NCBI GenBank assembly: GCA_963832135.1
Contig: CAWHTD010000016.1
Location: 1,186,445 to 1,250,444, forward strand
Length of the DNA: 64,000 bases
Origin: Vicinamibacteria bacterium
Lineage (GTDB): Bacteria; Acidobacteriota; Vicinamibacteria; Vicinamibacterales; JAENWD01
Reading direction: 5' to 3'
Part shown: one piece after another, positions 3,531 to 19,245 of the stretch
How positions within the stretch are numbered: the stretch's first letter is position 1
Layout of the letters: every line of letters begins with the position of its first letter
Program-made: the position numbers and the translations under genes
The notes under the pieces: model-generated
Database searches by the model: none
What the model saw: the letters and a program-made list of their open reading frames with translations, nothing else
What the model was told of the DNA's origin: nothing

Positions 3531-4520
3531 ATGGAATTCAAGGATTACTACGCCACGCTCGGCGTACCGAAGACGGCCACGGACAAAGAGCTCAAGCAGG
3601 CCTACCGCAAGCTCGCCCGGAAGCATCACCCGGACGTGAACCCGGGCGACAAGACGGCCGAAGCAAAATTCAAGGAAATCAACGAGGCCTACGAGGTGCT
3701 CGGTGATGCCGACAAGCGCCGGAAGTACGACGAGCTCGGCGCGAACTGGCGCGCCTACGAACAGGCCGAACGCGCGGGTGGCGCCGGGCCCTTCGAGCAG
3801 GGCGGATGGAGCGTGAACGTCGGAGGCGGGCAGGGCGGCTTCCGAACGATGAGCGAAGAGGAAATGCGTGAGATCTTCGGGACGGACAACCCGTTCTCGG
3901 ATTTCTTCAACACGTTCTTCGGAGGCGGCGAGCCGGAGTCCGGCCGTCGCGCTCGCACGGCGCGGTCTCGCGCCCGGAAGGGACGCGACCTCGAACAGGA
4001 GCTCGAGCTGACGCTCGAGGAGGCCGACCAGGGCGTGACGCGCCGCTTTTCGATCAAGCACGATGGGCACGCGCGAACGGTCGACGTCCGGGTGCCGCCC
4101 GGCGTGGGCGACGGCTCTCGCGTGCGGGTGGGTGGTGAAGGCGAACGAGGAGTCGGCGGCGCCGCCTCGGGCGATCTGTACCTTCGGGTACGGCTCCAGC
4201 CGCATCCTCAGTTCGAGCGGAAGGGCCGCGACCTCTACAGCCGCATTTCCGTGCCGCTCACGACGGCCGTCCTCGGCGGTGAAGTGAGTGTGCCCGCGCT
4301 GGGCGGACGCACGCTGCGGCTGAAAGTGCCGCCCGCGACGCAGAACGGACAAGTATTTCGGCTGCGAGGGCAAGGCATGAGCCTCAGCGGCAAACCCGGA
4401 GAGCGAAGCGACCTGTACGCCACCGTGGATGTCGAGCTGCCAAAACAGCTCACACCGCAGGAGCGCACCCTCTTCGAGGAATTGGCAAAGCTCGAACGCG
4501 ACAAGCACTCCGCTGCGTAA
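3531..4520 (+). CDS. DnaJ-class co-chaperone without zinc finger (CbpA-type)
   Basis: J domain with HPD, G/F-rich region, C-terminal DnaJ domain, no CxxCxGxG repeats. Confidence 0.93.
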
Positions 4521-9383: not shown

Positions 9384-10760
9384 ATGCAGGGACGATGGGC
9401 GCTCACAGGCGGGCTGGCACTGGCCCTAGCGGCCGGCGGCCACATTCTCGTTACGAAGGCGGCGACTCCAGCCATTGCCGTCGAAGATCTCGGACCGTCA
9501 GGCCTCCCGACCTACGCGCGTGCGGTGAGCGCCTCGGGCCGTGCGGCCGGCTTCGGGTACGACGCCGGCACCGTGGGATTCGGCTTCGAGCATTCGGGAG
9601 CGCCTGCGTTTGTTCCCCTGCCGTCGGGAGCCTCCGAGCTGTACGCGTACGGCGTCAACGGCAATGACGTGCTCACGGGCACGTATCGCGGCGCCGACGG
9701 GATCTCGCGCGCGTTTCGCTACGATGCGATGACGGCCGTTCTGACAGACGTCCCGCTCGTCACCGGCGCCACCGCGGCGACGGCGCAAGGCATCAACGAC
9801 GGAGGCGTGGTGGTGGGCTTTACGTTCACGCCGTCCGGCACTCGGGCATTTCGGCACCGGCCAGGGCTCGAGCCCGAGAATCTCGGTGACTTCGGGGGGA
9901 ACTACTCGGCGGCATTTGCCGCCAACGCGTCGGGCATTGTCGTCGGGGAAGCCCGCGAGTCGAGCGGCGCGTTCCGCGCGTTCCGCTTCAACGGCGCGCT
10001 TCATCCGCTTTCGCCGATTGCCGGGGCCTTCTCGCGAGCCGCCGCGATCAATGACGCGGGCGTGATGGTCGGCTACTCGTCCACGGCCACAGGCCAGCTC
10101 CACGCGGCGCGATGGCGATCGGACGCGGTCGTCGACGACCTCGGGACCCTCGGTGGGCCCACGAGCAGCGCGCTCGACATCAACGCCAGGGGTGACGTCG
10201 TGGGCCGCGCCGACGTCGCGCCCAGCCAGCCGCGCGCGTTCCTCGTCCAGGACGACCAGATGATCGACCTGAACAGCCTCATCGACGAGCACTCAGGATG
10301 GCTGCTGCAGGCCGCTTACGGCATCAATGACGCTGGTGTGGTGGTGGGAGAAGGGCTGCTGAAGGGGTCGCCGCGTGCGTTTCGCCTGACGCTGCCGTCC
10401 ACGCAGGATTCGGACGTGACCCCGCCGCTCGTGAGCGCCCTGTCGGCCACTCCAGCGTCGCTTTGGCCGCCAAAGCACCAACTCGTCACCGTGGCGGTGC
10501 ACGTCAGCGCCTCTGACGACTCGGGCGAGACGCCGGCCTGCCGGCTCGCGAGCGTGACGAGCAGCGATCCCGACAACGGCGCGGGCGACGGCGACACCAG
10601 CGGCGACATCGCCATCACGGGTCCGTTTTCCGCCAAGCTGCGCGCCGAACGTTCGGGAGGCCGCGAACGCATCTACACGCTCACGGTGCAGTGCCAGGAC
10701 GGGACCGGGAACGTCGCCACCAACACAACGAAAGTGGTGGTGCCGAAGAACGGCAACTAA
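9384..10760 (+). CDS. Secreted HAF-type repeat (probable beta-propeller) protein with C-terminal LWPPxH domain
   Basis: Signal peptide; repeated DLGTLGG-S-A-xIN-xG-VVG...RAF units; GGAG SD before ATG 9384. Confidence 0.85.
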   Translation: MQGRWALTGGLALALAAGGHILVTKAATPAIAVEDLGPSGLPTYARAVSASGRAAGFGYDAGTVGFGFEHSGAPAFVPLPSGASELYAYGVNGNDVLTGTYRGADGISRAFRYDAMTAVLTDVPLVTGATAATAQGINDGGVVVGFTFTPSGTRAFRHRPGLEPENLGDFGGNYSAAFAANASGIVVGEARESSGAFRAFRFNGALHPLSPIAGAFSRAAAINDAGVMVGYSSTATGQLHAARWRSDAVVDDLGTLGGPTSSALDINARGDVVGRADVAPSQPRAFLVQDDQMIDLNSLIDEHSGWLLQAAYGINDAGVVVGEGLLKGSPRAFRLTLPSTQDSDVTPPLVSALSATPASLWPPKHQLVTVAVHVSASDDSGETPACRLASVTSSDPDNGAGDGDTSGDIAITGPFSAKLRAERSGGRERIYTLTVQCQDGTGNVATNTTKVVVPKNGN

Positions 10761-10764
10761 ACAA

Positions 10765-10943
10765 CGGGTTGATCGGGTTAGGCGGGTTAGGCGGGTTAGG
10801 CGGGTTAGGCGGGTTAGGCGGGTTAGGCAGGTTGGTAGGGTTAGCCGGATCGGTCAAGTTGGTGGTTAGCGAGATTGATCGGGTTGGTCGGGTTGGTGGC
10901 GTTGCCGAACCCGACCAACCTGGCCAACCTGACCAACCCGATT
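10765..10943. repeat. 9-bp tandem repeat (CGGGTTAGG)6 with degenerate copies and a complementary C-rich arm
   Basis: Six perfect units at 10774-10827; ACCAACCyG units at about 10905-10942 are reverse-complementary; lies between convergent genes. Confidence 0.9.
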
Positions 10944-10957
10944 AGCTGCGATGTTCC

Positions 10958-13081
10958 CTATTTTGGAAGGGGGGTCGGAGCCGGCGTCGGCGGGGTGGGC
11001 GCAACGACCGGCTGCGGGCCTTGCCGGCCGCGATGTTCGCCGTCGGCAAGCTGCGACAGCGCGAAGATGGCCTGCTGGCGCACATCGGCGACCGGATCCT
11101 TGACAGCCGCGGTCAGCGCCTCGATGGCCGAGTCGTCGCCGATCTGGCTGAGCGCGAACGCGGCCTGCTCACGAACCGACGGCTCCTTGTCCTTGAGTGC
11201 CGCGATCAAGGCGGGCACGGCGGCGCGATCGCCGATCTGGCTGAGCGCGGCGGCCGCCTGTTCACGGACGTTGGGCTTCGAATCGCTCAAGGCGCCAATC
11301 AGGGCCGGCACCGCACTCACGTCGCGGATTTGCGACAACGCGAAGAGCGCCTGCTCCCGCACATCGTCGTCGACATCCTTCAACGCCGCAACCAGCGCGG
11401 GGACCGCCTTGGCCACGCGAAGCTGGCTCAGCGCGAAGGCCGCTTGCTGCCGGACCTCGGCGTTCTCGTCTTTGAGCGCGCCGATCAGCGCGTCGGTGGC
11501 ACGATCGTCCCGAAGCTGCGACAGCGCGAAAGCGGCCTGCTGGCGGACCTCAGGCTCCTTGTCCTTCAGTCCCACCACGAACGCGTCGAAGGCCGCGGGC
11601 GACCGAAAACGCGACAACGCGTGCATCGCGCTCTTACGCACCTCCACGTCGCTGTCTTTCAGTGCCTCCATGAGGGCCTGGAGCACGCCTGGAGATACAG
11701 CTCGAGGTTCCCCTTCGTTGTCGTCGTTATCCTCGTTATCGTTGTTGCTCTCGTTATCGTTCGAGTTGCCCTTCGTCGACTTGGATTCAGCAGCCTGCCC
11801 CGACGAGAGCGCTGGCGATACCGTCTGCGCTCCATCGCGGCGTGAATCGCCAGCCGCGCGTGCGGTACCGACATCTCCCAGCGGCTTCGCTTTGCCGGCG
11901 GGGACACTCATCGGCGGGCGCTCCGGGACGGAAGCGTCGACGCCGTCTGCGTGACCACCTGGCATCGTCGCGGCGTCGGTGATCGCCGGCGGCACGACCG
12001 CGGGCCTCGCGACGAGCCGAACTGTTGCCACAGGCAGTGCGATGACGGTCGCGAGCACCGCCACCTGCCAAAGGAGGTGATGGGCCGCGCGGGCGCGGCT
12101 GCGTCGTGGATCGAGAATCGCGAGCAGACGGCCCTCGAGCTCCGACGGCCGGGCCATCGCCAACGCGGCGCTGGCCAGCCCGGGGCGCGCGTCAAGAGTG
12201 GCAGCGCGCGCAATGTCGAGGAGGTGCTGCGCATAGTCCGCGCCTGGCGTTCCGCAGGCCAGCACGAGGTCGTCACACGCGCGCTCGCGTTCGGCCCGGA
12301 GATGTCGCGCACCGAGCCATGCGAGCGGGTTGAACCAGTAGAGCGCACAGACGACGTGACTGACCGCCTGGAGCAGACAGTCCCGCCGCGCGACGTGCGC
12401 GAGTTCGTGCAGCAGCACCACATGGATGCGCTCGTCGGTCCACGTGAGCGCCGCCGTCGGTACGACCAGCACAGGCCGGAAGAGTCCGCAGGTGAACGGC
12501 ACCGACACGCGCGTGGAGACGACCAGCTGAGAAGTTCTCGTCAATCCAAGCGTCGCGGTCGCCACGTCCAGCGCGTCACGCCAGCGAGGATCGTCGAGGC
12601 GATCCGCACGTCTCGTCATCCAGCGCACGGCACAAAGGCTGATCAGGTACCTCAGTACCAATGCCGTGGCGATCAGCGCCCAGGCGAGCAGCCCCCACGT
12701 CATCGGTGCGACCGCGCCCACAAGCTGCCCGAGGCGCGTCGATCCCTCAACGGACGGCGAGGCCGGAACACGATCCGTGTGTTTCAGCTGGGGCGCCGGC
12801 TGCAGGGTGGTGTTGCGAATGTTCTCGAGCTGCCGCGCAACGTACGTTGGCGCGGCTGGCGCGGCGGCCGGCAGAAGGGCCAGACGCCATGCCGGCAGTA
12901 CGCCGGCGGCAATCGGCAGGGCAAACGCGGCAATGAATCCCGCCGCCCAGACCGCATACCGCGTCGATGCCGAGCGGCGCAGCGCCACGCGCGCGCCGAG
13001 CCACGCCAGCGCGAGTACCAGGGTCGCTCTTGCCGCCAGTTCCGCGAGCACTAGAAGGGTCGTCCCGTCGGTCGCCATCAT
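10958..13081 (-). CDS. BlaR1-like M56 zinc metallopeptidase with 7 C-terminal HEAT (PBS lyase/alphaRep) repeats
   Basis: HELAH, WFNPLAW, ERERACDDLV, LEGRLLAIL; then a TM helix and 31-aa repeats ALKD...VRQQAAFALSQ. Confidence 0.92.
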   Translation of the reverse strand: MMATDGTTLLVLAELAARATLVLALAWLGARVALRRSASTRYAVWAAGFIAAFALPIAAGVLPAWRLALLPAAAPAAPTYVARQLENIRNTTLQPAPQLKHTDRVPASPSVEGSTRLGQLVGAVAPMTWGLLAWALIATALVLRYLISLCAVRWMTRRADRLDDPRWRDALDVATATLGLTRTSQLVVSTRVSVPFTCGLFRPVLVVPTAALTWTDERIHVVLLHELAHVARRDCLLQAVSHVVCALYWFNPLAWLGARHLRAERERACDDLVLACGTPGADYAQHLLDIARAATLDARPGLASAALAMARPSELEGRLLAILDPRRSRARAAHHLLWQVAVLATVIALPVATVRLVARPAVVPPAITDAATMPGGHADGVDASVPERPPMSVPAGKAKPLGDVGTARAAGDSRRDGAQTVSPALSSGQAAESKSTKGNSNDNESNNDNEDNDDNEGEPRAVSPGVLQALMEALKDSDVEVRKSAMHALSRFRSPAAFDAFVVGLKDKEPEVRQQAAFALSQLRDDRATDALIGALKDENAEVRQQAAFALSQLRVAKAVPALVAALKDVDDDVREQALFALSQIRDVSAVPALIGALSDSKPNVREQAAAALSQIGDRAAVPALIAALKDKEPSVREQAAFALSQIGDDSAIEALTAAVKDPVADVRQQAIFALSQLADGEHRGRQGPQPVVAPTPPTPAPTPLPK

Positions 13082-13464
13082 GCCTCCTCGCGGGCGCGCT
13101 CGAGCAGCGTCGCTAGACGATCCAGTTCCTCGGGCGCCAGGCGCGGTGCCTCCGAGCCGAGGAGCGCCGCGACGGCGTCCCCCGTCGAGCCGTCGAAGAA
13201 CGTCTGCACCAGATGCTTCATCGCGGATTGTCGCGCGCGGTCCCGGTCGACGCGGGGCAGGTAGACATAGCGTGGCCCATCCTGCTCATGCCGCGCGTGG
13301 CCCTTCTCTTCCAGGATTCGCAGCAGCGCGCGCACCGCGGAGTAGCTCGGGGCCTCGGGCAGCCCTTCCTGAACCTCGGCGGCCGTAGCCCGCCCCCGCT
13401 GAAACAGCAGGTCCATGATTTGCCGCTCGCGGCGGCTTAGATTTCCAAACAGGCTCTTTGCCAC
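13078..13464 (-). CDS. BlaI/MecI/CopY family repressor
   Basis: LSRRERQIMD...YSAVRALLRILEEKG...FFDGS; 4-bp overlap with the M56 gene; GAGGAG SD. Confidence 0.93.
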   Translation of the reverse strand: MAKSLFGNLSRRERQIMDLLFQRGRATAAEVQEGLPEAPSYSAVRALLRILEEKGHARHEQDGPRYVYLPRVDRDRARQSAMKHLVQTFFDGSTGDAVAALLGSEAPRLAPEELDRLATLLERAREEA

Positions 13465-13481
13465 GCCAGGTTACTCCTCAC

Positions 13482-13582
13482 GGGCGCACGCAGTGCGCCC
13501 CTACGAGTTCGCGTTGGGCCATGCCGAATTCGCGTTGGGCCGTGCCCTATGCGCCAGCGTAGGCTCGATCTTCAGCTCGGGC
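13482..13582. repeat. Two GTAG-type REP elements in the blaI leader
   Basis: Reverse complement of GTAGGGGCGCACTGCGTGCGCCC at 13482-13504; GTAGGCTCGATCTTCAGCTCGGGC at 13559-13582. Confidence 0.75.
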
Positions 13583-13587
13583 TTGAC

Positions 13588-13603
13588 TGCTAACAAATTA
13601 GCA
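13588..13603. promoter_or_regulatory. Candidate BlaI operator TGCTAA-N4-TTAGCA
   Basis: Perfect 6-bp arms upstream of blaI; recurs at 16058 and 16094. Confidence 0.7.
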
Positions 13604-13626
13604 CGACTCCGACTGCCCCGTCCACC

Positions 13627-14418
13627 TCAGTCGCGGCGGCCGCCATCCACCAGGCGCGACAGCGCGATGGCCGCACTCCGGCGGACATCGGGCACGGCGT
13701 CTTTCAGCGCACCCGTCAGCGGATCTTCGGCGCGAGCGTCCCCCATCTCTCCCAGCGCGGAGGCGGCCTGCGCCCGCACCTCGGCGTTCTGATCCTTGAG
13801 CGCCGTGATAAGCGCGGCGACCGCGGCCGGATCCTTGATCCGCCCGAGCGCAACGCAGGCTTCGCGCCGGACGTCCGCGTCGCTATCGGACAGCGCCGTT
13901 ATCAACGTCGGCACGGCCGACCTGTCGCGCGTCTGCGACAGCGCGTGGATCGCCTGCCGGCGGATATCGGCGTTCTTGTCTTTCAGTGCCGCCGTAAGGA
14001 TCGGCAAGGCTCGCGGATCTTTGGAGCGCGCGAGGAGGGCGATCGCCTGCTGACGGACATCGTCATTGGGATCCTTGGCAATCTCAATGAGGACTTCGGG
14101 AGAAATCGACGCCCGGACACGGCTCAACGCCGCCAGCGCCTGCTGGCGGACGTCGGCATCCTCGTCGTGCAGTGCCTCGATGAGCGCCTTAATCGCTGTT
14201 TCTGGCAGGCTGCCCCTCTCGTCCCCATCCTCATCGCCATCGCCGAAACTGACGTGCGGACTTGGCGTCGGCGTGGGAGTGGGCATCGGAGTCGGCGTCG
14301 GCCTCGGTGTGGGTGTCGGCGTTGGAGTGGGCGTCTGCCGAGCACGGAGCGTCATCGAGGCGCCCGACATGAGCAACCCTGTGAACGTAAGCGCCACGCC
14401 GATCGAACGAGTTTTCAT
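13627..14418 (-). CDS. Exported HEAT-repeat protein (6 repeats) with Pro/Thr linker
   Basis: Signal-peptide-like N-terminus, (TP)n, acidic patch, 31-aa HEAT repeats; start chosen from GGAG spacing (14424 and 14436 also possible). Confidence 0.85.
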   Translation of the reverse strand: MKTRSIGVALTFTGLLMSGASMTLRARQTPTPTPTPTPRPTPTPMPTPTPTPSPHVSFGDGDEDGDERGSLPETAIKALIEALHDEDADVRQQALAALSRVRASISPEVLIEIAKDPNDDVRQQAIALLARSKDPRALPILTAALKDKNADIRRQAIHALSQTRDRSAVPTLITALSDSDADVRREACVALGRIKDPAAVAALITALKDQNAEVRAQAASALGEMGDARAEDPLTGALKDAVPDVRRSAAIALSRLVDGGRRD

Positions 14419-14514
14419 GATCATGATCTCCGTCACTTAGAAAGACTGTTCATCGAACCACGAATGTAAAGCAGCAGGCCGGAGGCGAGGGACGCATAGC
14501 CAGCTTCACATTGG

Positions 14515-14625
14515 AGATCGCAGAGCCGGTTTCAACGCGGAGATCGCTGAGTCCGCCGAGTCCCTAATAGTTGTTTGCGTACTCCGCGTCCTCGGCGTTG
14601 ACATCGTCTCTGCGCGCTCTGCTCC
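14515..14625. repeat. Inverted repeat built from degenerate 9-mers (CGCrGAGrn family)
   Basis: TCAACGCGGAGATCGCTGAG... pairs with ...CTCCGCGTCCTCGGCGTTGA; same family as 19250-19395. Confidence 0.65.
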
Positions 14626-14681
14626 TGTCGTCCGACCCTTCAGACGAACGGAGCGCCGTCCTTTCCAGCTGGCCTCTCCCA

Positions 14682-16022
14682 TCAGTGGTCGGTGACCTCG
14701 GCGAGCGCCCAGGCCGCCATCTTTCGTACTTCTGGATGGGCATCTTTGAGGCTCACGGCCAGTGCGTCCGCCGCGCGCGCGTCTGCAATCTCGCCAATGG
14801 CCCACGCCACCTTGGCGCGCACCTTCCACTCGCGATCTTTGAGCGCCGCGATGAGCGGTTGCAGCGCGTCGGGGCTTTCGATCTCACCGAGCGCCCAGGC
14901 CGCCATCTCGCGCACCCCGATGTCCGCATCGGCAAGCGCTGCGCTCAGGCCGGGTACCGCCTTCGCGTTTTCGATCTCGCCAAGCGCCCAGGCCGCCATC
15001 TCGCGCGTCTTTGCGTGCTCGTCGGCACGCACGGTCGCGACCAATGCCTCGACGCTGTCCACGTCTTCGATTTCGCCGAGAGCCCAGGCCGCTTGTCTGC
15101 GGACGTCGGGCTCACGATCTTTCAGCGCACCTCGCAGCGCAGGCGCGGCGCGCCGATCCTCGATCTCGCCGAGGGCCCACGCGGCCATGTGGCGAACGCG
15201 AGGGTGCTCGTCGTTGGCGAGTCGACCGCCAAGCGCGGTCACGGCTTCGGCGGAATGCAGCTCGCCCAGCGCGTGAGTCACTTCCCGGCGGACGGTCCAC
15301 TCAGAATCGTCCAGCGCGCCGATGAGCGCGGCCACGGCGTGCTGATCTTCGAGCTCGCTCAATCCGTGCGCGGCCATCTCGCGGACACGCGGGTGCGCAT
15401 CTTTGAGCCGAGCCGCGACCGGCTGCACCACGCCCCCTTCGCCCACTTCCCCAAGCGCCCAGACGACGCTCCGGCGGACCTGCCAGTCGCTGTCATCGAG
15501 TGTCGCGAGCAGGCGCACCACCGCGGGGCGCGCGACCTCGCGGTCGTCCAGCATGCCGAGCGCGATCGCCGCAAACCGCCGCATCGTCGCGTGGACGTCG
15601 CCAAGGGCCGTCATCAGCGGCTTGATCGCTTGCGCCCCGATGCGGGACAGGGCGCGCGCCGCCTCGCGCGCAGGTGAAGTAGCGCACTGACGGGGCTCGC
15701 CGCCCACGCTCCAGTCGCGGCCGTCGCCGTCGTGGTCGCCGCAGTCAAGGGCGTCGACGCGTGTATCGTCGGCCAGCAGCGCGATGAGCGCCGGGACCTG
15801 GCCTATCGCGTCGGTGCCACGCAGCCCGAGTTCACAGGCGGCGCGGGCCCGCTCGGCGGGTTCCGCAGCTTGTACCGCCGCAGACAGCGAGCCGACGCCA
15901 CCCGTCTGTTCGGCGGCTCTGGGTGCACTCGAGAGGCTCCAGCCGGGCCGTCGCTCGATGATGGGCGGTAACACGGCCACCAGGCTCAGCGTGATCAGCC
16001 AGGCGTTTGCTCGTCGTGCCAC
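14682..16022 (-). CDS. Exported or membrane-anchored HEAT-repeat protein (about 12 repeats, AAWALGEIE ladder)
   Basis: Hydrophobic N-terminus after basic residues; repeated VREMAAWALGEIE; GGAGGA SD before GTG. Confidence 0.88.
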   Translation of the reverse strand: MARRANAWLITLSLVAVLPPIIERRPGWSLSSAPRAAEQTGGVGSLSAAVQAAEPAERARAACELGLRGTDAIGQVPALIALLADDTRVDALDCGDHDGDGRDWSVGGEPRQCATSPAREAARALSRIGAQAIKPLMTALGDVHATMRRFAAIALGMLDDREVARPAVVRLLATLDDSDWQVRRSVVWALGEVGEGGVVQPVAARLKDAHPRVREMAAHGLSELEDQHAVAALIGALDDSEWTVRREVTHALGELHSAEAVTALGGRLANDEHPRVRHMAAWALGEIEDRRAAPALRGALKDREPDVRRQAAWALGEIEDVDSVEALVATVRADEHAKTREMAAWALGEIENAKAVPGLSAALADADIGVREMAAWALGEIESPDALQPLIAALKDREWKVRAKVAWAIGEIADARAADALAVSLKDAHPEVRKMAAWALAEVTDH

Positions 16023-16057
16023 GATGTCCTCCTGCTCAGTCCTACCGAATTCCGAAG

Positions 16058-16109
16058 TGCTAAAAACATAGCATCGACGATTGGGGAGTGTCCAGCTAAA
16101 TTTTTAGCT
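16058..16109 (-). promoter_or_regulatory. Promoter of the HEAT operon with two candidate BlaI operators
   Basis: TGCTAA-AAAC-ATAGCA (16058-16073) and AGCTAA-ATTT-TTAGCT (16094-16109); minus-strand TGGACA-N18-TATGTT with TGn extension. Confidence 0.7.
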
Positions 16110-16206
16110 TCCAGGATCCAGACGAGAAATCCCGGTCGGTTTGTTCCCTGGACCTCGGCCGCCTCGCACGCTGCTCCGCCGAAAATCGCCAAAGAAATGC
16201 CCCCGC

Positions 16207-16253
16207 TTGCTAATGCCTACATTGTGGGCATATAATGCCTGCATTGCAGACAT
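16207..16253 (+). promoter_or_regulatory. padR promoter with tandem 19-bp palindromic operators
   Basis: TTGCTA-N18-TATAAT; ATGCCTACATTGTGGGCAT (16213-16231) and ATGCCTGCATTGCAGACAT (16235-16253). Confidence 0.72.
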
Positions 16254-16575
16254 GGCCGCATATCTGGGTGAATTCGAATACGCCGTGATGCTCGCCGTCC
16301 TCAGGCTCGCCGACGATGCGTACGCGGTGCCAATCCGGCAGCTCATCGAAACGCGGACCGGCCGCGCCATCGCGCGAGGTGCGCTCTACACCGCGCTCGA
16401 GCGCCTCGAGGTGAAAGGCTGCCTGAAATCGTCCATGAAGCAGGCAGACGCCCCGCGAGCCGGACGCGCCCGGCGCTACTTCGCGCTGACGCCAGGCGGC
16501 GTGACGGCCCTGCGCGCGACCCATGTGGCGCTGCGGCGCATGACCAGCGGCCTTGAAGCCATTCTGGAGCACTGA
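16252..16575 (+). CDS. PadR-family transcriptional regulator (acidobacterial type)
   Basis: YLGEFEYAVMLAVLRL...GALYTALERLE.KG...RARRYF; coupled to the permease. Confidence 0.9.
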   Translation: MAAYLGEFEYAVMLAVLRLADDAYAVPIRQLIETRTGRAIARGALYTALERLEVKGCLKSSMKQADAPRAGRARRYFALTPGGVTALRATHVALRRMTSGLEAILEH

Positions 16576-19245
16576 TGCCGGCCCCTCCCCGCCTCGCCGA
16601 GCGACTGCTGTCGCTCGCCATTCGTGATACGTCCTGGCGCGACGGCATCGTCGGCGACCTGTCGGAGGAGTTCAGCATCATGTCGAAAGACCTCGGAGAG
16701 TCGCAGGCGCGACGTTGGTACTGGCGCGAGGCGCTGAGCGTCGCCGCGCATCGCCTCACTCGACGGCTGGGACGTGACGGTCTGGTCCGCCAGCGACGCC
16801 TTCGGCCCGAGGCCGAAGAACCGCGCGCCGGCCTCGCAGGCGTCCTGTGGCACGACCTCCGTTCCGCGTGGCGCATGGTGCGGCACCAGCCGGCGCTCTC
16901 GATGACGATCGTCGTCGTGCTCGCCGTCGCCCTGGCGGCGAATGCGACGACGTTTTCGATCGCCGACGCGATCGTGCTGCGTCCCTTTCGTTATCCAGGC
17001 GTGGATCGCGCGGTCGTCGTCGCCTCCGACGATCACAAGCGGTTCTTCGACCGCAATTCAGTTGCCGCGGGCGATTTCGTGGACTGGCGCGAGCAGGCGG
17101 GCGACGTGCTGGATCGTCTCGCCGCCATCGAGTGGTGGGAGCCCGCGTATACAAAGGCGGGCCTGCCGCAGCGGCTCTCGGGCTTCCGCGTCTCGCCTTC
17201 CCTGTTCGAGCTGCTTGGCGTCCCGGCGATCCTTGGCCGCGCGCTCGTGCCCGGCGACGAACGGGGCGGGGCGGGGGCCGTCGTCCTGAGTTACGACTTC
17301 TGGCAACGCCAGTTCGCGGGACGGCCGGATGTGCTGAACGTCACGCTCAGGCTGGACGGCGTCTCGCACCGCGTCGTGGGCGTGATGCCGCCGACCTTTC
17401 GTGTTCCGTTCAGCGCTGATCTGTGGGCGCCGTTCGCTCTGTCGCCTCAGGCGCGCAGCCAGCGCGGTCCCGGATCGCTCATGGTCGTTGGACGCCTCGC
17501 GCCCGGCATCAACGTCGAGGCCGTCGAGCAGCGACTCAAAGCGATTCTCGTGCAACAAAAGCGCGCGTTCCCCGAGACGCACGTGCGTCGCGAAGTGAGC
17601 GTGCGCAGCTTCACTGACGGATTCGGCGATCCCGGCGCCGGCCCGTTCCTCGCCGTGTGGCAAATGGCGGCGTTCCTGCTCCTGCTCGTCGCGTGCGCCA
17701 ACGTGGCGAATCTGATGCTCGCCCGCAACGTCGAGCGCGATCGGGAATTTGCCGTGCGACTGGCGCTTGGCGCCAGCACCTTTCGAATCTCCTGGCAGCT
17801 GCTCGTCGAAGGCGTCGTGCTCGCGGGCGCGGCCGCCCTGCTGGCCGTGCCGCTCGTCTGGGCAGCGCTTGGGGCCACGCGAGCCGCCTTTCCGGCGGCG
17901 ATTCTTCGGTTCGTTCCGGGTGTCGAGTATCTCCAGATCGCGCCGGCGACGTTTCTCGCGACCGCGGTCCTGGCGGGTGCCGCCACGGTTCTGTTCGCGA
18001 TGGTTCCCGCGCGCCGGCCGGCAAGGCGTCAGCGCGGGATTGCGGCAGGGCGGCCGGGTCACGGCCGACGGCAAGCGACAATATGGGCGGGCGATTCTGG
18101 CGACCACGCAGATTGCATTGACGCTTGCCTTGCTCGCGGCGGCCGGCGTCAGTCTCGCGGCTCTGTATCGTGTGACCGACGGCCCGCTCGGATTTGATCG
18201 GCACGGAGTGCTCGTGGGTCGTCTCACGCTCTCCGAGGAGCGTTATGGGGACGCCGCGCGGCGGCAGCAGTTCGTCGACCGTATGCTGGCGCGGCTGCTA
18301 TCGCTCCCCGCCGTCGCGGCTGCCGCTGTCGCCAGCCATCCGCCGTATGGGAATTCGGACAGATCCGAAAGCTTCTGGCCGGAGAATGTGCCGCCGCGTG
18401 CCGCAGACGCCACTCAGGTGCAGTGGCGCGCAATCACGCCGACGGCTTCGTCTGTGCTGCGCATCCGACTGGTGAACGGACGCATGTTCGAAGGAACCGA
18501 TCGCCACGACGGGCCTCCGGTTGCCCTGGTCAGTGAGTCCCTTGCGCGACGCTTCTGGCCGAAAACTGATGCCATTGGCCAGCGCTTCAGGCTCGCCGCC
18601 GACGGTCCCCTCGTCACGGTCGTCGGCGTGGTCGGAGACGTCGCGCACTATTGGCTCTTCGGCGAACGGCTGACGGTCTATCGGCCATTCGCCCAGGACC
18701 CGCCTTCCTGGTTCGCGCTGATGGTGCGCACCCCGGCCAACCCGGCCGATCTCGCGGCCGAACTCCGCGCGGCCGTTCAGGCCGAGGACCCCGATCAGCC
18801 GCTCTACGATGTCAGGACGCTTGCGGCGATGGTCGAGGACAACACGTTCGGTCTCCGCTTCGCGGGACAGACACTCGGCATCATCGCGCTCGTCTCGTGC
18901 CTGCTTTCGACGATTGGGCTCTACAGCCTGATGTCGTTCCTGACCAGCCGGAGAACGCGAGAAATTGGCGTACGCATGGCCCTCGGCGCAACACGCTGGG
19001 ACGTCATCAGGCTCATGAGTGCGACGGCGGTCCGTCTGACGGGCGTTGGCCTTGCGGTGGGGCTGCTGCTTACGTATGCGACGGGGCGCCTTCTGCAGGA
19101 AGTCTTGTTCGGTGTGGTCACCAGCAGCCTGCCGCTCGCACTCGGGCTCGCGCTGCTGCTGGGCCTGGTCAGCGCGGCCGCCAGTTACCTACCGGCACGC
19201 CGCGCAGCCGCCGTCGAACCGACGACGGCGCTGCGGGTCGAGTGA
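16575..19245 (+). CDS. Duplicated MacB-like ABC permease (ADOP type), frameshifted near 18010
   Basis: Two MacB/FtsX halves (VACANVANL...REFAVRLALGA; RTREIGVRMALGA) split across ORFs 16575..18197 and 17749..19245. Confidence 0.88.

What the first reader, a model, noticed from the sequence alone, without database searches (positions are those of the whole stretch)
10958..16109. Candidate new signalling system: BlaI/BlaR1 with a HEAT-repeat sensor controlling exported HEAT-repeat proteins
Seen: four co-directional genes, HEAT(about 12)-HEAT(6)-blaI-M56::HEAT(7). The M56 protein keeps HELAH and has a TM helix before its repeats, so the repeats should face outward. Both free HEAT proteins have export-type N-termini. 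Known: in BlaR1/MecR1 the outer sensor is a penicillin-binding domain, and cleavage of BlaI induces an exported protein that handles the same ligand. Inference: the same logic built on an alphaRep scaffold. The membrane solenoid detects a periplasmic ligand (peptide, misfolded protein or polymer), BlaI is inactivated, and non-enzymatic HEAT proteins are made as sponges, chaperones or co-receptors. No beta-lactamase is present. I know of no characterised system like this, but could not search.
Basis: partly seen in the sequence, partly recalled or inferred. Interest (0 to 1): 0.85.

Follow-up and report, generated by a model that had tools for sequence, protein, structure and literature searches.

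The report
BlaR-like switch with HEAT-repeat sensor
A soil bacterium carries a relative of the penicillin-sensing BlaI/BlaR1 switch in which the outward-facing sensor is a HEAT-repeat solenoid, and the genes it appears to control encode exported HEAT-repeat proteins; the arrangement is widespread in two soil phyla and has not been studied.

Summary
Four co-directional minus-strand genes encode HEAT-L (446 aa), HEAT-S (269 aa), a BlaI-family repressor, and an M56 (BlaR1-like) metalloprotease fused to seven HEAT repeats.

New evidence:
- A 16-bp palindrome, TGCTAA-N4-TTAGCA, lies once upstream of blaI and twice upstream of HEAT-L, where it overlaps a promoter-like -10. Its only two perfect cores in the 7.56-Mb genome are here.
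- The same motif sits upstream of blaI in many related loci and upstream of free HEAT genes.
- Gemmatimonadota use a diverged palindrome, TGTTGA-N4-TCAACA, at both kinds of position.
- 32 of 43 M56::HEAT loci have a co-directional free HEAT gene beside them; 0 of 37 M56 loci with other C-termini do.
- Four predicted TM helices, charge distribution and homology to BlaR1 place the HEAT domain in the periplasm. Free HEAT proteins carry N-terminal hydrophobic segments.
- Positions that form the variable concave binding face in alphaRep proteins are here a fixed aromatic ladder.

Best reading: a BlaI/BlaR-type proteolytic derepression switch with a solenoid sensor and solenoid outputs. The ligand is unknown, and cleavage and induction are untested. 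No paper describing it was found. It is a new variant of a known kind.

The parts
14682..16022 (-). HEAT-L: 446-aa exported or membrane-anchored HEAT-repeat protein with an N-terminal hydrophobic segment, two invariant Cys (C94, C113), and 9 regular repeats with an x-M-W-E ladder
13627..14436 (-). HEAT-S: 269-aa protein (likely start 14418) with a signal-peptide-like N-terminus, a Pro/Thr-rich linker and 6 HEAT repeats; 51.6% identical over 188 aa to the sensor domain; irregular ladder
13078..13464 (-). blaI: BlaI/MecI-family winged-helix repressor, 128 aa
10958..13081 (-). M56::HEAT: 707-aa BlaR1-like membrane zinc metalloprotease with a C-terminal HEAT-repeat domain
12395..12409 (-). HELAH zinc-binding motif (residues 225-229) between TM3 and TM4; H, E and H are invariant in 20 homologues
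11711..12001 (-). low-complexity linker of about 100 residues (361-457) between TM4 and the repeats, pLDDT below 50
11027..11710 (-). sensor HEAT domain (residues 458-685): seven alphaRep-like repeats with an x-Q-F-Q ladder
13588..13603 (.). operator O-I, TGCTAACAAATTAGCA, about 125 nt upstream of the blaI start
16058..16073 (.). operator O-2, TGCTAAAAACATAGCA (1 mismatch), overlapping the promoter-like -10 of HEAT-L
16094..16109 (.). operator O-1, AGCTAAATTTTTAGCT (perfect 14-bp core), abutting the promoter-like -35 of HEAT-L
16065..16094 (-). sigma-70-like promoter of HEAT-L: TGGACA, 18 nt, TATGTT, with TG before the -10

Best explanation
This is a BlaI/BlaR1-type regulated-proteolysis switch in which the penicillin-binding sensor is replaced by a periplasmic HEAT (alphaRep-like) solenoid. 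Its output genes encode exported HEAT solenoids.

Supported by sequence analysis:
- A BlaI-family repressor gene is translationally coupled to an M56 zinc metalloprotease gene.
- The protease has four TM helices, an intact HELAH and a downstream ERERACDD motif. Its C-terminal HEAT domain is predicted to face the periplasm on a linker of about 100 residues.
- One TGCTAA-N4-TTAGCA palindrome lies at the blaI promoter, and two lie over the -35 and -10 region of the HEAT-L promoter.
- HEAT-S follows HEAT-L with no operator of its own and no terminator-like site between them, so it is probably co-transcribed.

Inferred by analogy with S. aureus and B. licheniformis BlaR1:
- BlaI dimers bind the palindromes and repress both promoters.
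- A periplasmic signal acting on the HEAT domain activates the cytoplasm-facing protease, which inactivates BlaI.
- Both promoters are then derepressed. HEAT-L (probably membrane-anchored) and HEAT-S (probably a soluble periplasmic protein) are made, together with more sensor and repressor.

Further inference on the ligand. The positions that form the variable concave binding face in alphaRep proteins are fixed here as a repeat-after-repeat ladder: Q-F-Q in the sensor and M-W-E in HEAT-L. I therefore think the ligand is a periodic or extended polymer, such as an unfolded or extended peptide, a cell-wall peptide or a glycan chain. I estimate about 0.3 for this.

By analogy with BlaR1, where an extracellular loop occupies the sensor site until the ligand displaces it, the disordered loop at residues 63-119 could play that role. 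This is speculation.
For: Domains:
- Pfam M56 at 1.3e-35, HEAT_2 at 8.1e-53, Penicillinase_R at 1.3e-27.
- A profile of 20 homologues hits S. aureus BlaR1 chains 8exs/8exp at 1.7e-8 and alphaRep proteins at up to 3e-136.
- The single sequence aligns its HEAT-side HExxH and E..D motifs with BlaR1 residues 108-252.
- H224, E225, H228 and the ERERACDD block are invariant in 20 of 20 homologues.

Topology:
- Four TM helices and the charge distribution.
- BlaR1 is N-out, C-out with a cytosolic active site (PMC9834060, passages).
- 35 of 41 free HEAT ORFs over 200 aa in related loci have an N-terminal hydrophobic segment.
- Two Cys are invariant in 11 of 11 HEAT-L orthologues.

Operator:
- 3 matches in the window against 0.20 expected; 0 of 100 shuffles reach 3.
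- In the whole 7.56-Mb genome there are 2 perfect cores, both in this locus, and 18 with at most 1 mismatch.
- In 1.03 Mb of 80 related loci there are 68 matches: 54 upstream of blaI, 10 upstream of free HEAT genes, 3 just after an M56 gene and 1 elsewhere. Twenty shuffles gave 7-19 matches.
- The flanking T and A, which were not part of the search pattern, are present in 66 of 68 matches.
- A matrix trained only on blaI sites scores 11 of 41 free HEAT ORFs above the 99% null. All 11 are the first free HEAT gene of an Acidobacteriota-type locus.
- 14 of 15 relatives fetched have two operators upstream of HEAT-L, and 12 of those 14 also have one upstream of blaI.
- In 18 Gemmatimonadota loci the palindrome is TGTTGA-N4-TCAACA. 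There are 32 matches in 226,632 bases, in 13 of the 18 loci. All lie upstream of blaI or, in 10 loci, directly after the M56::HEAT stop: in 9 of these at the 5' end of the free HEAT gene, and in L019 shortly before the contig ends with no HEAT gene called.
- A promoter-like site overlaps the HEAT-L operators.
- The same operator precedes a PF00144 beta-lactamase-family gene after M56 in two Acidobacteriota loci.

Synteny:
- 32 of 43 against 0 of 37.
- 36 of 43 free HEAT proteins are closest to a free HEAT protein of another locus, so they are old, maintained genes.

Ladder:
- alphaRep variable positions 22, 23, 26 and 30 lie on the concave binding face (PMC3754942, passages).
- In 32 of 32 loci scored, the large free HEAT protein has W at position 26 in most repeats. 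The sensor has F in 19 loci, W in 11 and H in 2.
- The only two other regular-HEAT ORFs in this genome have no such ladder.
Against: - There is no experimental or expression evidence.
- The linker of about 100 residues between TM4 and the HEAT domain is predicted disordered. That makes rigid allosteric coupling of the kind seen in BlaR1 hard to picture.
- The BlaI scissile pair of S. aureus, Asn101-Phe102 (PMC9834060), aligns with Ala-Leu here, so cleavage at that site is not implied.
- A single-sequence search of this BlaI against solved structures found nothing at E 0.001. Only a profile of 24 sequences did.
- HEAT-S has no operator of its own. In this window it lies 245 nt from HEAT-L, against 0-33 nt in relatives, and its ladder is irregular.
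- 11 of 43 M56::HEAT loci show no free HEAT neighbour; 4 of these are on contigs that end nearby. The second M56::HEAT paralogue in this genome was not seen to have one.
- 5 of 18 Gemmatimonadota loci, and 42 of 77 blaI genes at one mismatch or fewer, show no operator match.
- Export signals were judged by a crude hydropathy window, not by a trained predictor.
- The related loci are kin, so the counts overstate independence.
- ORF starts in the locus scans are the longest-ORF starts, so distances to operators are approximate.
Confidence: 0.65

Rival explanations
1. Partner switch or feedback. The free HEAT proteins are not ligand-handling outputs. Instead they bind the sensor's HEAT domain directly, concave face to concave face, as alphaRep pairs can. 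They then hold the protease off or on. The real signal acts on the free HEAT proteins, or their induction shuts the system down.
For: alphaRep proteins can bind each other through their concave faces (PMC3754942, passage on A3/bA3-2). The free HEAT genes are tightly and anciently linked to the sensor. HEAT-S resembles the sensor's outer part: an N-terminal hydrophobic segment, a Pro/Thr-rich linker, and HEAT repeats 51.6% identical to the sensor's.
Against: Where sensor and free HEAT ladders match, they match with like residues, including like charges. Examples are F-E with W-E in L045, W-E with W-E in L077, and W-r with W-R in L133. This fits a shared ligand better than face-to-face pairing.
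Confidence: 0.2
2. Tether, not sensor. The HEAT domain on its long linker only anchors the M56 protein to an envelope structure or partner. The TonB_C domains of paralogous M56 proteins may do the same. The signal that activates the protease arises in the membrane or cytoplasm. The HEAT genes are ordinary regulon members with a structural role in the envelope.
For: The linker of about 100 residues is disordered. In this genome other M56 paralogues carry TonB_C, or CarboxypepD_reg plus TonB_C. TonB_C is the second most common M56 architecture (PMC13492132, section 12). Some atypical BlaR proteins have no sensor domain at all (bioRxiv 10.64898/2026.08.03.742534, passages).
Against: The strict conservation of the concave-face ladder across repeats and orthologues indicates selection on a binding surface. 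The sensor-type-specific linkage to HEAT outputs is not explained by a generic tether.
Confidence: 0.1
3. The HEAT domain and free HEAT proteins are cytoplasmic and the cluster is not an envelope-sensing system. For example, the HEAT proteins could be scaffolds or lyase-like factors regulated by a BlaI/CopY-type repressor.
For: Most characterised bacterial PBS-type HEAT proteins, such as the phycobilin lyases, are cytoplasmic (recalled; YibA is only seen as PDB hit 1oyz, 'hypothetical protein yibA', with no localisation given). NCBIfam gives weak sub-threshold hits to the lyases CpcE/F and to NblB.
Against: All those NCBIfam hits are far below their cut-offs. An even number of TM helices and the BlaR1 homology put the C-terminus outside. 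N-terminal hydrophobic segments occur in 35 of 41 free HEAT ORFs. A Cys pair is conserved in HEAT-L. The CopY family score is 41.9 against a cut-off of 121.95.
Confidence: 0.03

Closest known systems
BlaR1/BlaI and MecR1/MecI of Staphylococcus aureus and Bacillus licheniformis
   Same: A BlaI-family repressor gene sits directly upstream of an M56 membrane zinc protease with four TM helices, HExxH between TM3 and TM4, and a C-terminal outward-facing domain. Palindromic operators lie at the regulator promoter and, in a pair, at the output promoter. The output proteins are exported and related in fold class to the sensor domain.
   Different: The sensor is a HEAT solenoid, not a penicillin-binding (transpeptidase-like) domain. 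No beta-lactamase or PBP gene was found in the cluster. The operator sequence differs (the staphylococcal TACA/TGTA dyads are recalled, not from a call). The Asn-Phe scissile pair of BlaI is Ala-Leu here. A disordered linker of about 100 residues follows TM4.
Atypical BlaIR-family systems: CenIR of C. difficile, PvmSR of P. aeruginosa, and BlaIR of M. tuberculosis and M. abscessus
   Same: These are BlaI plus M56 pairs that do not sense beta-lactams. Their signals are unknown.
   Different: Those BlaR proteins have short or no recognisable C-terminal domains (PMC13492132, abstract and section 12; bioRxiv 10.64898/2026.08.03.742534, passages). Here there is a large folded repeat domain, and the output genes are of the same domain type.
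M56 proteins with a C-terminal TonB_C domain (second most common M56 architecture)
   Same: An M56 module, a low-complexity linker and a periplasmic protein-binding domain. Such paralogues exist in this genome, next to BlaI genes.
   Different: The C-terminal fold is different. No free TonB_C-type output genes were examined.
alphaRep / PBS-lyase HEAT-like repeat proteins (natural family behind the designed alphaRep binders)
   Same: The 31-residue repeat has the same scaffold. HMMER E-values reach 3e-136. Foldseek gives TM-scores normalised to the target of up to 0.93 among the listed alphaRep chains, at 35-45% identity.
   Different: In alphaRep proteins positions 18, 19, 22, 23, 26 and 30 are hypervariable. 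In the sensor and HEAT-L, positions 23, 26 and 30 are almost the same in every repeat, and the proteins are predicted to be exported.
Armadillo repeat peptide binders (importin-alpha, designed armadillo repeat proteins)
   Same: Pfam Arm scores lie above the cut-off for all three proteins (66.6, 63.7 and 80.1 bits against 20.6). The profile hits designed armadillo proteins crystallised with (KR)n or (RR)n peptides. A repeated aromatic-x-x-x-polar pair on one helix face recalls the Trp/Asn ladder that holds extended peptides (that motif is recalled, not from a call).
   Different: The repeat is a two-helix HEAT-type repeat. The polar partner is Gln, Glu or Ala rather than Asn. No peptide binding has been shown.

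Membership tests
Peptidase M56 (BlaR1-like signal-transducing metalloprotease) | M56 domain scoring above the Pfam cut-off | tested here: met
   123.5 bits against a cut-off of 31, residues 26-321
Peptidase M56 (BlaR1-like signal-transducing metalloprotease) | HExxH plus a downstream acidic zinc ligand, located between TM3 and TM4 of four TM helices | tested here: met
   HELAH at 225-229. ERERACDD aligns with the E..D of BlaR1. Both are invariant in 20 of 20 homologues. TM helices.
Peptidase M56 (BlaR1-like signal-transducing metalloprotease) | adjacent BlaI-family repressor gene | tested here: met
   blaI overlaps the M56 start by 4 nt. 78 of the 80 related loci have one.
BlaR1/MecR1 proper (beta-lactam sensor-transducer) | C-terminal penicillin-binding (transpeptidase-like) sensor domain | tested here: not met
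   No PF00905 or beta-lactamase hit. NCBIfam blaR1_generic scores 83.9 bits against a cut-off of 400; sensor_BlaR1 scores 18.4 and sensor_MecR1 33.2 against 1200.
BlaR1/MecR1 proper (beta-lactam sensor-transducer) | induction by beta-lactams of a linked beta-lactamase or PBP gene | not testable with these tools
   No such gene among the 7 neighbours scanned. Induction needs an experiment.
BlaI/MecI/CopY repressor family | Penicillinase_R winged-helix domain above the cut-off | tested here: met
   96.9 bits against 22.6. A profile of 24 sequences hits MecI at 1.4e-15, BlaI at 2e-14 and the M. tuberculosis homologue 2g9w at 1.7e-12.
BlaI/MecI/CopY repressor family | Asn-Phe scissile bond in the dimerisation helix (S. 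aureus BlaI 101-102) | tested here: not met
   The aligned residues are Ala-Leu. Site taken from PMC9834060.
BlaI/MecI/CopY repressor family | binds a palindromic operator at its own and its target promoters | tested here: inconclusive
   Strong positional and covariation evidence for TGCTAA-N4-TTAGCA. Binding itself was not measured.
CopY/TcrY copper repressors | family score above the NCBIfam cut-off | tested here: not met
   41.9 bits against 121.95
alphaRep-type / PBS-lyase HEAT-like repeats | 31-residue two-helix repeats matching HEAT_2 and HEAT_PBS | tested here: met
   HEAT_2 at 177, 140 and 226 bits against 27.7; HEAT_PBS above its cut-off in all three proteins. alphaRep chains are the best PDB matches by sequence and by fold.
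Phycobilin lyases and NblB (CpcE/F, CpeY, NblB) | family score above the NCBIfam cut-off | tested here: not met
   Best scores are 105.9 against 300 (NblB) and 97.2 against 330 (CpcE).

The most novel reading that the evidence does not exclude
This would be a natural receptor-and-binder system built entirely from one binder scaffold. A membrane protease reads the occupancy of a periplasmic alpha-solenoid whose aromatic/amide ladder grips an extended polymer, such as unfolded envelope proteins, foreign peptides or a glycan chain. It answers by exporting further solenoids. One is a conserved ladder protein (HEAT-L) that handles the same polymer. The other (HEAT-S) has a fast-evolving concave face and would act as a diversifying binder or decoy. 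That would make it a previously unrecognised envelope-surveillance pathway of Acidobacteriota and Gemmatimonadota, and the first natural use of an alphaRep-type surface as a signalling receptor.
Probability: 0.25. Interest if true: 0.85.

Novelty: new variant of a known kind. Interest (0 to 1): 0.68.

Why it matters
BlaI/BlaR1 is a textbook one-step transmembrane proteolytic switch, but only its beta-lactam-sensing form is understood. A 2026 survey found that bona fide penicillin-binding BlaR proteins are only about 6% of M56 proteins, and that what the rest sense is unknown (PMC13492132, section 12).

This locus offers an unusually tractable member of that majority:
- The sensor is a well-folded, soluble-type repeat domain that can be made and screened for ligands.
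- The operator is defined and conserved.
- The outputs are identified.
- The module recurs across two abundant but poorly studied soil phyla.

It would also be a natural example of the alphaRep scaffold, which is used in protein engineering, working as a receptor. That could guide the design of synthetic ligand-gated transcription switches.

Tried and rejected
- Complex prediction of the sensor domain (A1 residues 454-690) with HEAT-L (A2 residues 45-446): no verdict. The pair scored 0.50 and one unrelated control scored 0.57. It is not used as evidence either way.
- Public sequencing runs for window 10958-16140: none was listed, so no RNA holder was listed and read laying was not used.
- I did not try it again.
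- A single-sequence search of BlaI against solved structures found nothing at E 0.001. I replaced it with a profile of 24 BlaI sequences.
- Foldseek on the full-length model was dominated by the HEAT part, and BlaR1 did not appear among the listed rows. The BlaR1 relationship therefore rests on sequence and on Pfam.
- An atlas search with HEAT-L residues 40-175 returned only HEAT/Arm clusters, so no separate N-terminal domain was identified.
- My first GC3 filter for ORFs in paralogue loci was too strict, and I loosened it.
- The simple terminator scan found no minus-strand terminator-like site in 10700-16300. This is weak support for co-transcription and no more.
- The null distribution for the operator matrix was drawn from windows that can contain true sites. 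Its 99% threshold is therefore conservative.
- Tat export of HEAT-L was considered because of the twin Arg in MARRAN. I dropped it because the residues after RR do not fit the motif as I recall it.
- CopY-type metal sensing was considered and rejected on the family score.
- I did not run SignalP or TMHMM-type predictors because none is on hand.
- Supplementary files of the papers were not seen. Table S3 and Fig. 7 of PMC13492132 might list rarer architectures, including HEAT.

Full report
**1. What is there**

Between 10958 and 16109 the minus strand carries four genes.
- HEAT-L, 16022..14682, 446 aa.
- HEAT-S, 14436..13627, 269 aa.
- blaI, 13464..13078, 128 aa.
- A 707-aa gene, 13081..10958, whose start overlaps the blaI stop by 4 nt.

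Pfam gives Penicillinase_R for BlaI (96.9 bits against a cut-off of 22.6). For the last protein it gives Peptidase_M56 (123.5 against 31, residues 26-321) plus HEAT_2 (177 bits). The two free proteins give HEAT_2 only. NCBIfam scores for BlaR1, MecR1, CopY and the phycobilin lyases are all far below their cut-offs.

The neighbours are FtsH, a secreted DUF3466-like protein, a PadR regulator with an ADOP-family permease, and Rho. None is a beta-lactamase. The ADOP and padR_acidobact models, and the named relatives (Vicinamibacteria MAGs), place the organism in Acidobacteriota.

**2. Anatomy of the M56::HEAT protein**

Hydropathy finds four helices at 8-26, 44-62, 120-138 and 340-358. The 27-43 loop has four K/R. 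HELAH is at 225-229, in the 201-residue loop between TM3 and TM4.

The sequence aligns with S. aureus BlaR1 residues 108-252, including HExxH and the E..D motif. The E-value is 4.5e-5 for the single sequence and 1.7e-8 for a profile of 20 homologues. H224, E225, H228 and ERERACDD are invariant in 20 of 20 homologues.

BlaR1 is N-out, C-out with the active site facing the cytosol (PMC9834060, passages). The same topology here puts residues 359-707 in the periplasm.

The AlphaFold2 model has mean pLDDT 75.7 and pTM 0.46. It shows two confident modules, 4-357 and 458-682. These are joined by a segment with pLDDT below 50 (361-457) that is acidic and Asn-rich here, and Gly- or Pro/Thr-rich in homologues. 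The 71-124 loop is also of low confidence. The C-terminal module has seven helix pairs. It matches alphaRep proteins by sequence (up to 3e-136) and by fold (Foldseek E 1e-12, 35-45% identity among the listed alphaRep chains).

**3. A shared operator**

Reading the three intergenic regions showed the palindrome GCTAA-N4-TTAGC once before blaI and twice before HEAT-L.
- In the window there are 3 matches at one mismatch or fewer, against 0.20 expected. None of 100 shuffles reached 3.
- In the whole 7.56-Mb genome there are 2 perfect cores, both in this locus, and 18 with at most one mismatch.
- A promoter-like site on the minus strand (TGGACA, 18 nt, TATGTT, preceded by TG) lies at 16094-16065. 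The proximal operator therefore covers the -10 and the distal one abuts the -35.
- By eye, the blaI operator also overlaps a TG-n-TAATTT element 18 nt after TGGACG. This is my reading, not a tool call.

In the 80 related loci from public genomes (1.03 Mb) there are 68 matches. Of these, 54 lie upstream of blaI, 10 upstream of free HEAT genes, 3 just after an M56 gene and 1 elsewhere. Twenty shuffles gave 7-19. The flanking T and A, which were not part of the pattern, are present in 66 of 68 matches. The full site is therefore TGCTAA-N4-TTAGCA. At this stringency, 35 of 77 blaI genes have a site.

Two of the three sites after an M56 gene precede a PF00144 beta-lactamase-family gene. This shows that the same operator marks output genes in more classical-looking relatives.

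A matrix trained only on blaI sites picks out 11 of 41 free HEAT ORFs. Each of the 11 is the first free HEAT gene of its locus.

In 15 relatives from the window's family and order, 14 have two operators upstream of HEAT-L, spaced 35-36 or 42-44 bp apart. Twelve of those 14 also have one upstream of blaI. The fifteenth (G028) has two upstream of blaI and its HEAT gene downstream.

In 18 Gemmatimonadota loci the palindrome is different: TGTTGA-N4-TCAACA. There are 32 matches at two mismatches or fewer in 226,632 bases, in 13 of the 18 loci. Every match lies either upstream of blaI (often as a pair 17 bp apart) or, in 10 loci, directly after the M56::HEAT stop. In 9 of those 10 the match is at the 5' end of the free HEAT gene. 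In L019 the contig ends shortly after the site and no HEAT gene is called. Five loci have none.

The site changes in concert at both kinds of position. This is the strongest available in-silico sign that one co-evolving repressor binds both.

**4. Synteny**

All 120 best of 5110 database homologues (E at or below 1e-5, among 8000 candidates scored) carry both PF05569 and PF13646. Some are named by one source as 'HEAT repeat protein/beta-lactamase regulating signal transducer with metallopeptidase domain'.

I mapped BlaI, M56 and HEAT on all ORFs of the 80 loci and counted.
- 39 loci have fused M56::HEAT and 4 have it split, apparently by frameshifts.
- 32 of these 43 have one or more co-directional free HEAT genes. 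Four of the 11 without lie on contigs that end nearby.
- 0 of the 37 loci whose M56 has another C-terminus have one.

By record title, the 43 are 21 Acidobacteriota, 18 Gemmatimonadota and 4 others (Rhodothermales, 'Clostridia', and two unclassified).

The gene order differs between groups. In the window's family the free HEAT genes come before blaI. Elsewhere they mostly come after M56::HEAT.

36 of 43 free HEAT proteins are most similar to a free HEAT protein of another locus. Two are most similar to their own sensor (70-73% identity in L025 and L077). The partner genes are therefore old and maintained, with occasional recent copying.

Among 40 relatives searched, 15 had an M56 match with HEAT repeats. 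These were 14 of 18 in the window's family and 1 of 22 outside it. Four family members gave only M56-domain matches with this query.

**5. Export of the free proteins**

The window's HEAT-S begins with K/R, a 16-residue hydrophobic stretch and then TPTPTP.... Three of four orthologues shown have A-L-A before R-Q at the end of that stretch, which looks like a cleavable signal peptide.

HEAT-L begins MARRAN plus AWLITLSLVAVLPPII, followed by ERRP. It has no obvious cleavage site and may stay anchored.

In related loci, 35 of 41 free HEAT ORFs over 200 aa have an N-terminal segment with mean hydropathy of 1.8 or more over 12 residues. The six exceptions are mostly fragments of split genes or over-long ORF calls.

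HEAT-L orthologues keep two invariant Cys (C94, C113; 11 of 11), which fits an oxidising compartment. These are crude criteria; no trained predictor was available.

**6. The binding face**

In alphaRep proteins, positions 18, 19, 22, 23, 26 and 30 are the variable ones and line the concave face that binds targets (PMC3754942, passages). I read positions 22, 23, 26 and 30 from every repeat.
- The window's sensor has KSHR, QQFQ, QQFQ, EQFQ, EQAQ, EQFQ, QQFQ.
- HEAT-L has xMWE or xQWE in six of nine repeats.
- HEAT-S is irregular (QQAR, QQAR, RQHQ, REVR, AQSE, RSIR), and its orthologues differ from one another.

Across the 32 loci where both could be scored, the large free HEAT protein has W at position 26 in most repeats in 32 of 32. 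The sensor has F in 19, W in 11 and H in 2.

Position 30 matches between sensor and free protein in several lineages: L-L in two Blastocatellia-type loci, E-E in L045 and L077, Q-Q in L129 and L131, and R-R in L133. It does not match in the window's genus (Q against E) or in the L011 group (Q against A).

The genome's only two other ORFs with regular repeats of this type lack any such ladder (a small control).

A fixed aromatic-x-x-x-polar pair in every repeat is what one expects of a surface that grips a periodic or extended ligand. All three proteins also score above the Pfam Arm cut-off. The profile reaches designed armadillo proteins solved with (KR)n peptides. The comparison with the Trp/Asn ladder of importin-alpha is from memory and was not tested.

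**7. How it most likely works**

See Best explanation for the full statement. In short, the parts list, the topology argument, the operator positions and their covariation, and the sensor-specific synteny come from sequence analysis.

The inferred steps are these:
- BlaI binds the operators.
- The protease inactivates BlaI on a periplasmic signal.
- HEAT-L and HEAT-S are the induced outputs.
- The ligand is an extended polymer.

The points that fit least well are:
- the long disordered linker, which argues against rigid coupling;
- the Ala-Leu at the position of the Asn101-Phe102 scissile bond of S. aureus BlaI;
- the irregular HEAT-S.

In BlaR1 an extracellular loop sits in the sensor site until the antibiotic displaces it (PMC9834060, abstract). 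A similar self-occupancy of the solenoid groove by the 63-119 loop is conceivable. That loop, however, is poorly conserved and is not docked in the model.

**8. Comparison with the known, and novelty**

The protein is a member of Peptidase M56 and works, by all signs, like BlaR1. It is not a BlaR1/MecR1, because the defining penicillin-binding domain was tested for and is absent.

BlaR-like proteins mostly lack that domain. This was published in 2026: about 15,000 M56 entries fall into 254 architectures, and nine of these have 100 or more entries. The named domains are TonB_C, TP, M23, Plug, CarbopepD_reg_2, DUF4825 and Amidase_3. HEAT is not among them. 96% lie near a BlaI (PMC13492132, section 12 read).

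The studied atypical systems (CenIR, PvmSR, mycobacterial BlaIR) have no folded sensor domain.

Three full-text searches found no paper that links M56 or BlaR1 with HEAT repeats. Supplements were not available.

I rate this as a new variant of a known kind. The switch is known. The sensor type, the operator, the outputs and the sensor-output kinship are new.

**9. Verdict**

The finding is real, well supported as far as sequence can go, and worth experiments. Interest 0.68. Confidence in the general mechanism 0.65. Confidence in the extended-polymer ligand about 0.3.

Noticed in passing
G000:C26:823828-825828 (L002:3828-5828, +), with blaI at L002:2685-3080: There is a second BlaI plus M56::HEAT pair in the same genome (HEAT_2 at 1.2e-40). 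Its BlaI is only 27% identical to the window's. The ORF list and tblastn did not show a free HEAT gene beside it.
   Followed up: partly
G000:C9:1201598-1201636 (L007 about 3599-3637): Two operator-like sites lie 22 bp apart, TGCTGACTTTTTAGCA and TGCTAAATTCTTAACC. They sit directly upstream of a 798-aa ADOP/MacB-type permease gene. This could be a further BlaI-family target. A PadR/ADOP pair also lies divergent to HEAT-L in the window.
   Followed up: partly
window 13465-13587: The blaI leader is about 125 nt here, against roughly 20-56 nt in relatives. It holds a direct repeat GGCCCAACGCGAA(T/C)TCG twice, and a GC-rich hairpin GGGCGCACTGCGTGCGCCC. The hairpin also occurs next to operator-like words at C14:390171 and C16:1641127. 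It looks like a small inserted repeat element.
   Followed up: partly
window 14437-14681: There is a 245-nt gap between HEAT-L and HEAT-S, against 0-33 nt in relatives. It has no operator and no terminator-like site. Its content is unexplained.
   Followed up: no
window 16575-19245: The ADOP-family permease is read as two overlapping ORFs, 16575-18197 and 17749-19245. The first matches only positions 1-394 of the 803-position family model. This could be a frameshift, a sequencing error or a pseudogene.
   Followed up: no
window 10864-10942: Long imperfect inverted repeats of GGTTGG/CCAACC-type hexamers (31-nt arms, 77-95% complementary) lie between the convergent ends of the 8886-10760 gene and M56::HEAT. 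This may be a bidirectional terminator. An ORF across it reads GGLGGLGG.
   Followed up: no
L039:8972-10483 and L057:8813-10318: In two Acidobacteriota MAG loci, blaI and an M56 gene (with no recognised C-terminal domain) are followed by the same operator and a 500-aa PF00144 beta-lactamase-family protein with DUF3471.
   Followed up: partly
L027:6287-11062: A 1591-aa M56::HEAT protein has 28 regular repeats with a K-R-W-E ladder and no separate free HEAT gene. The output may be fused to the sensor.
   Followed up: no
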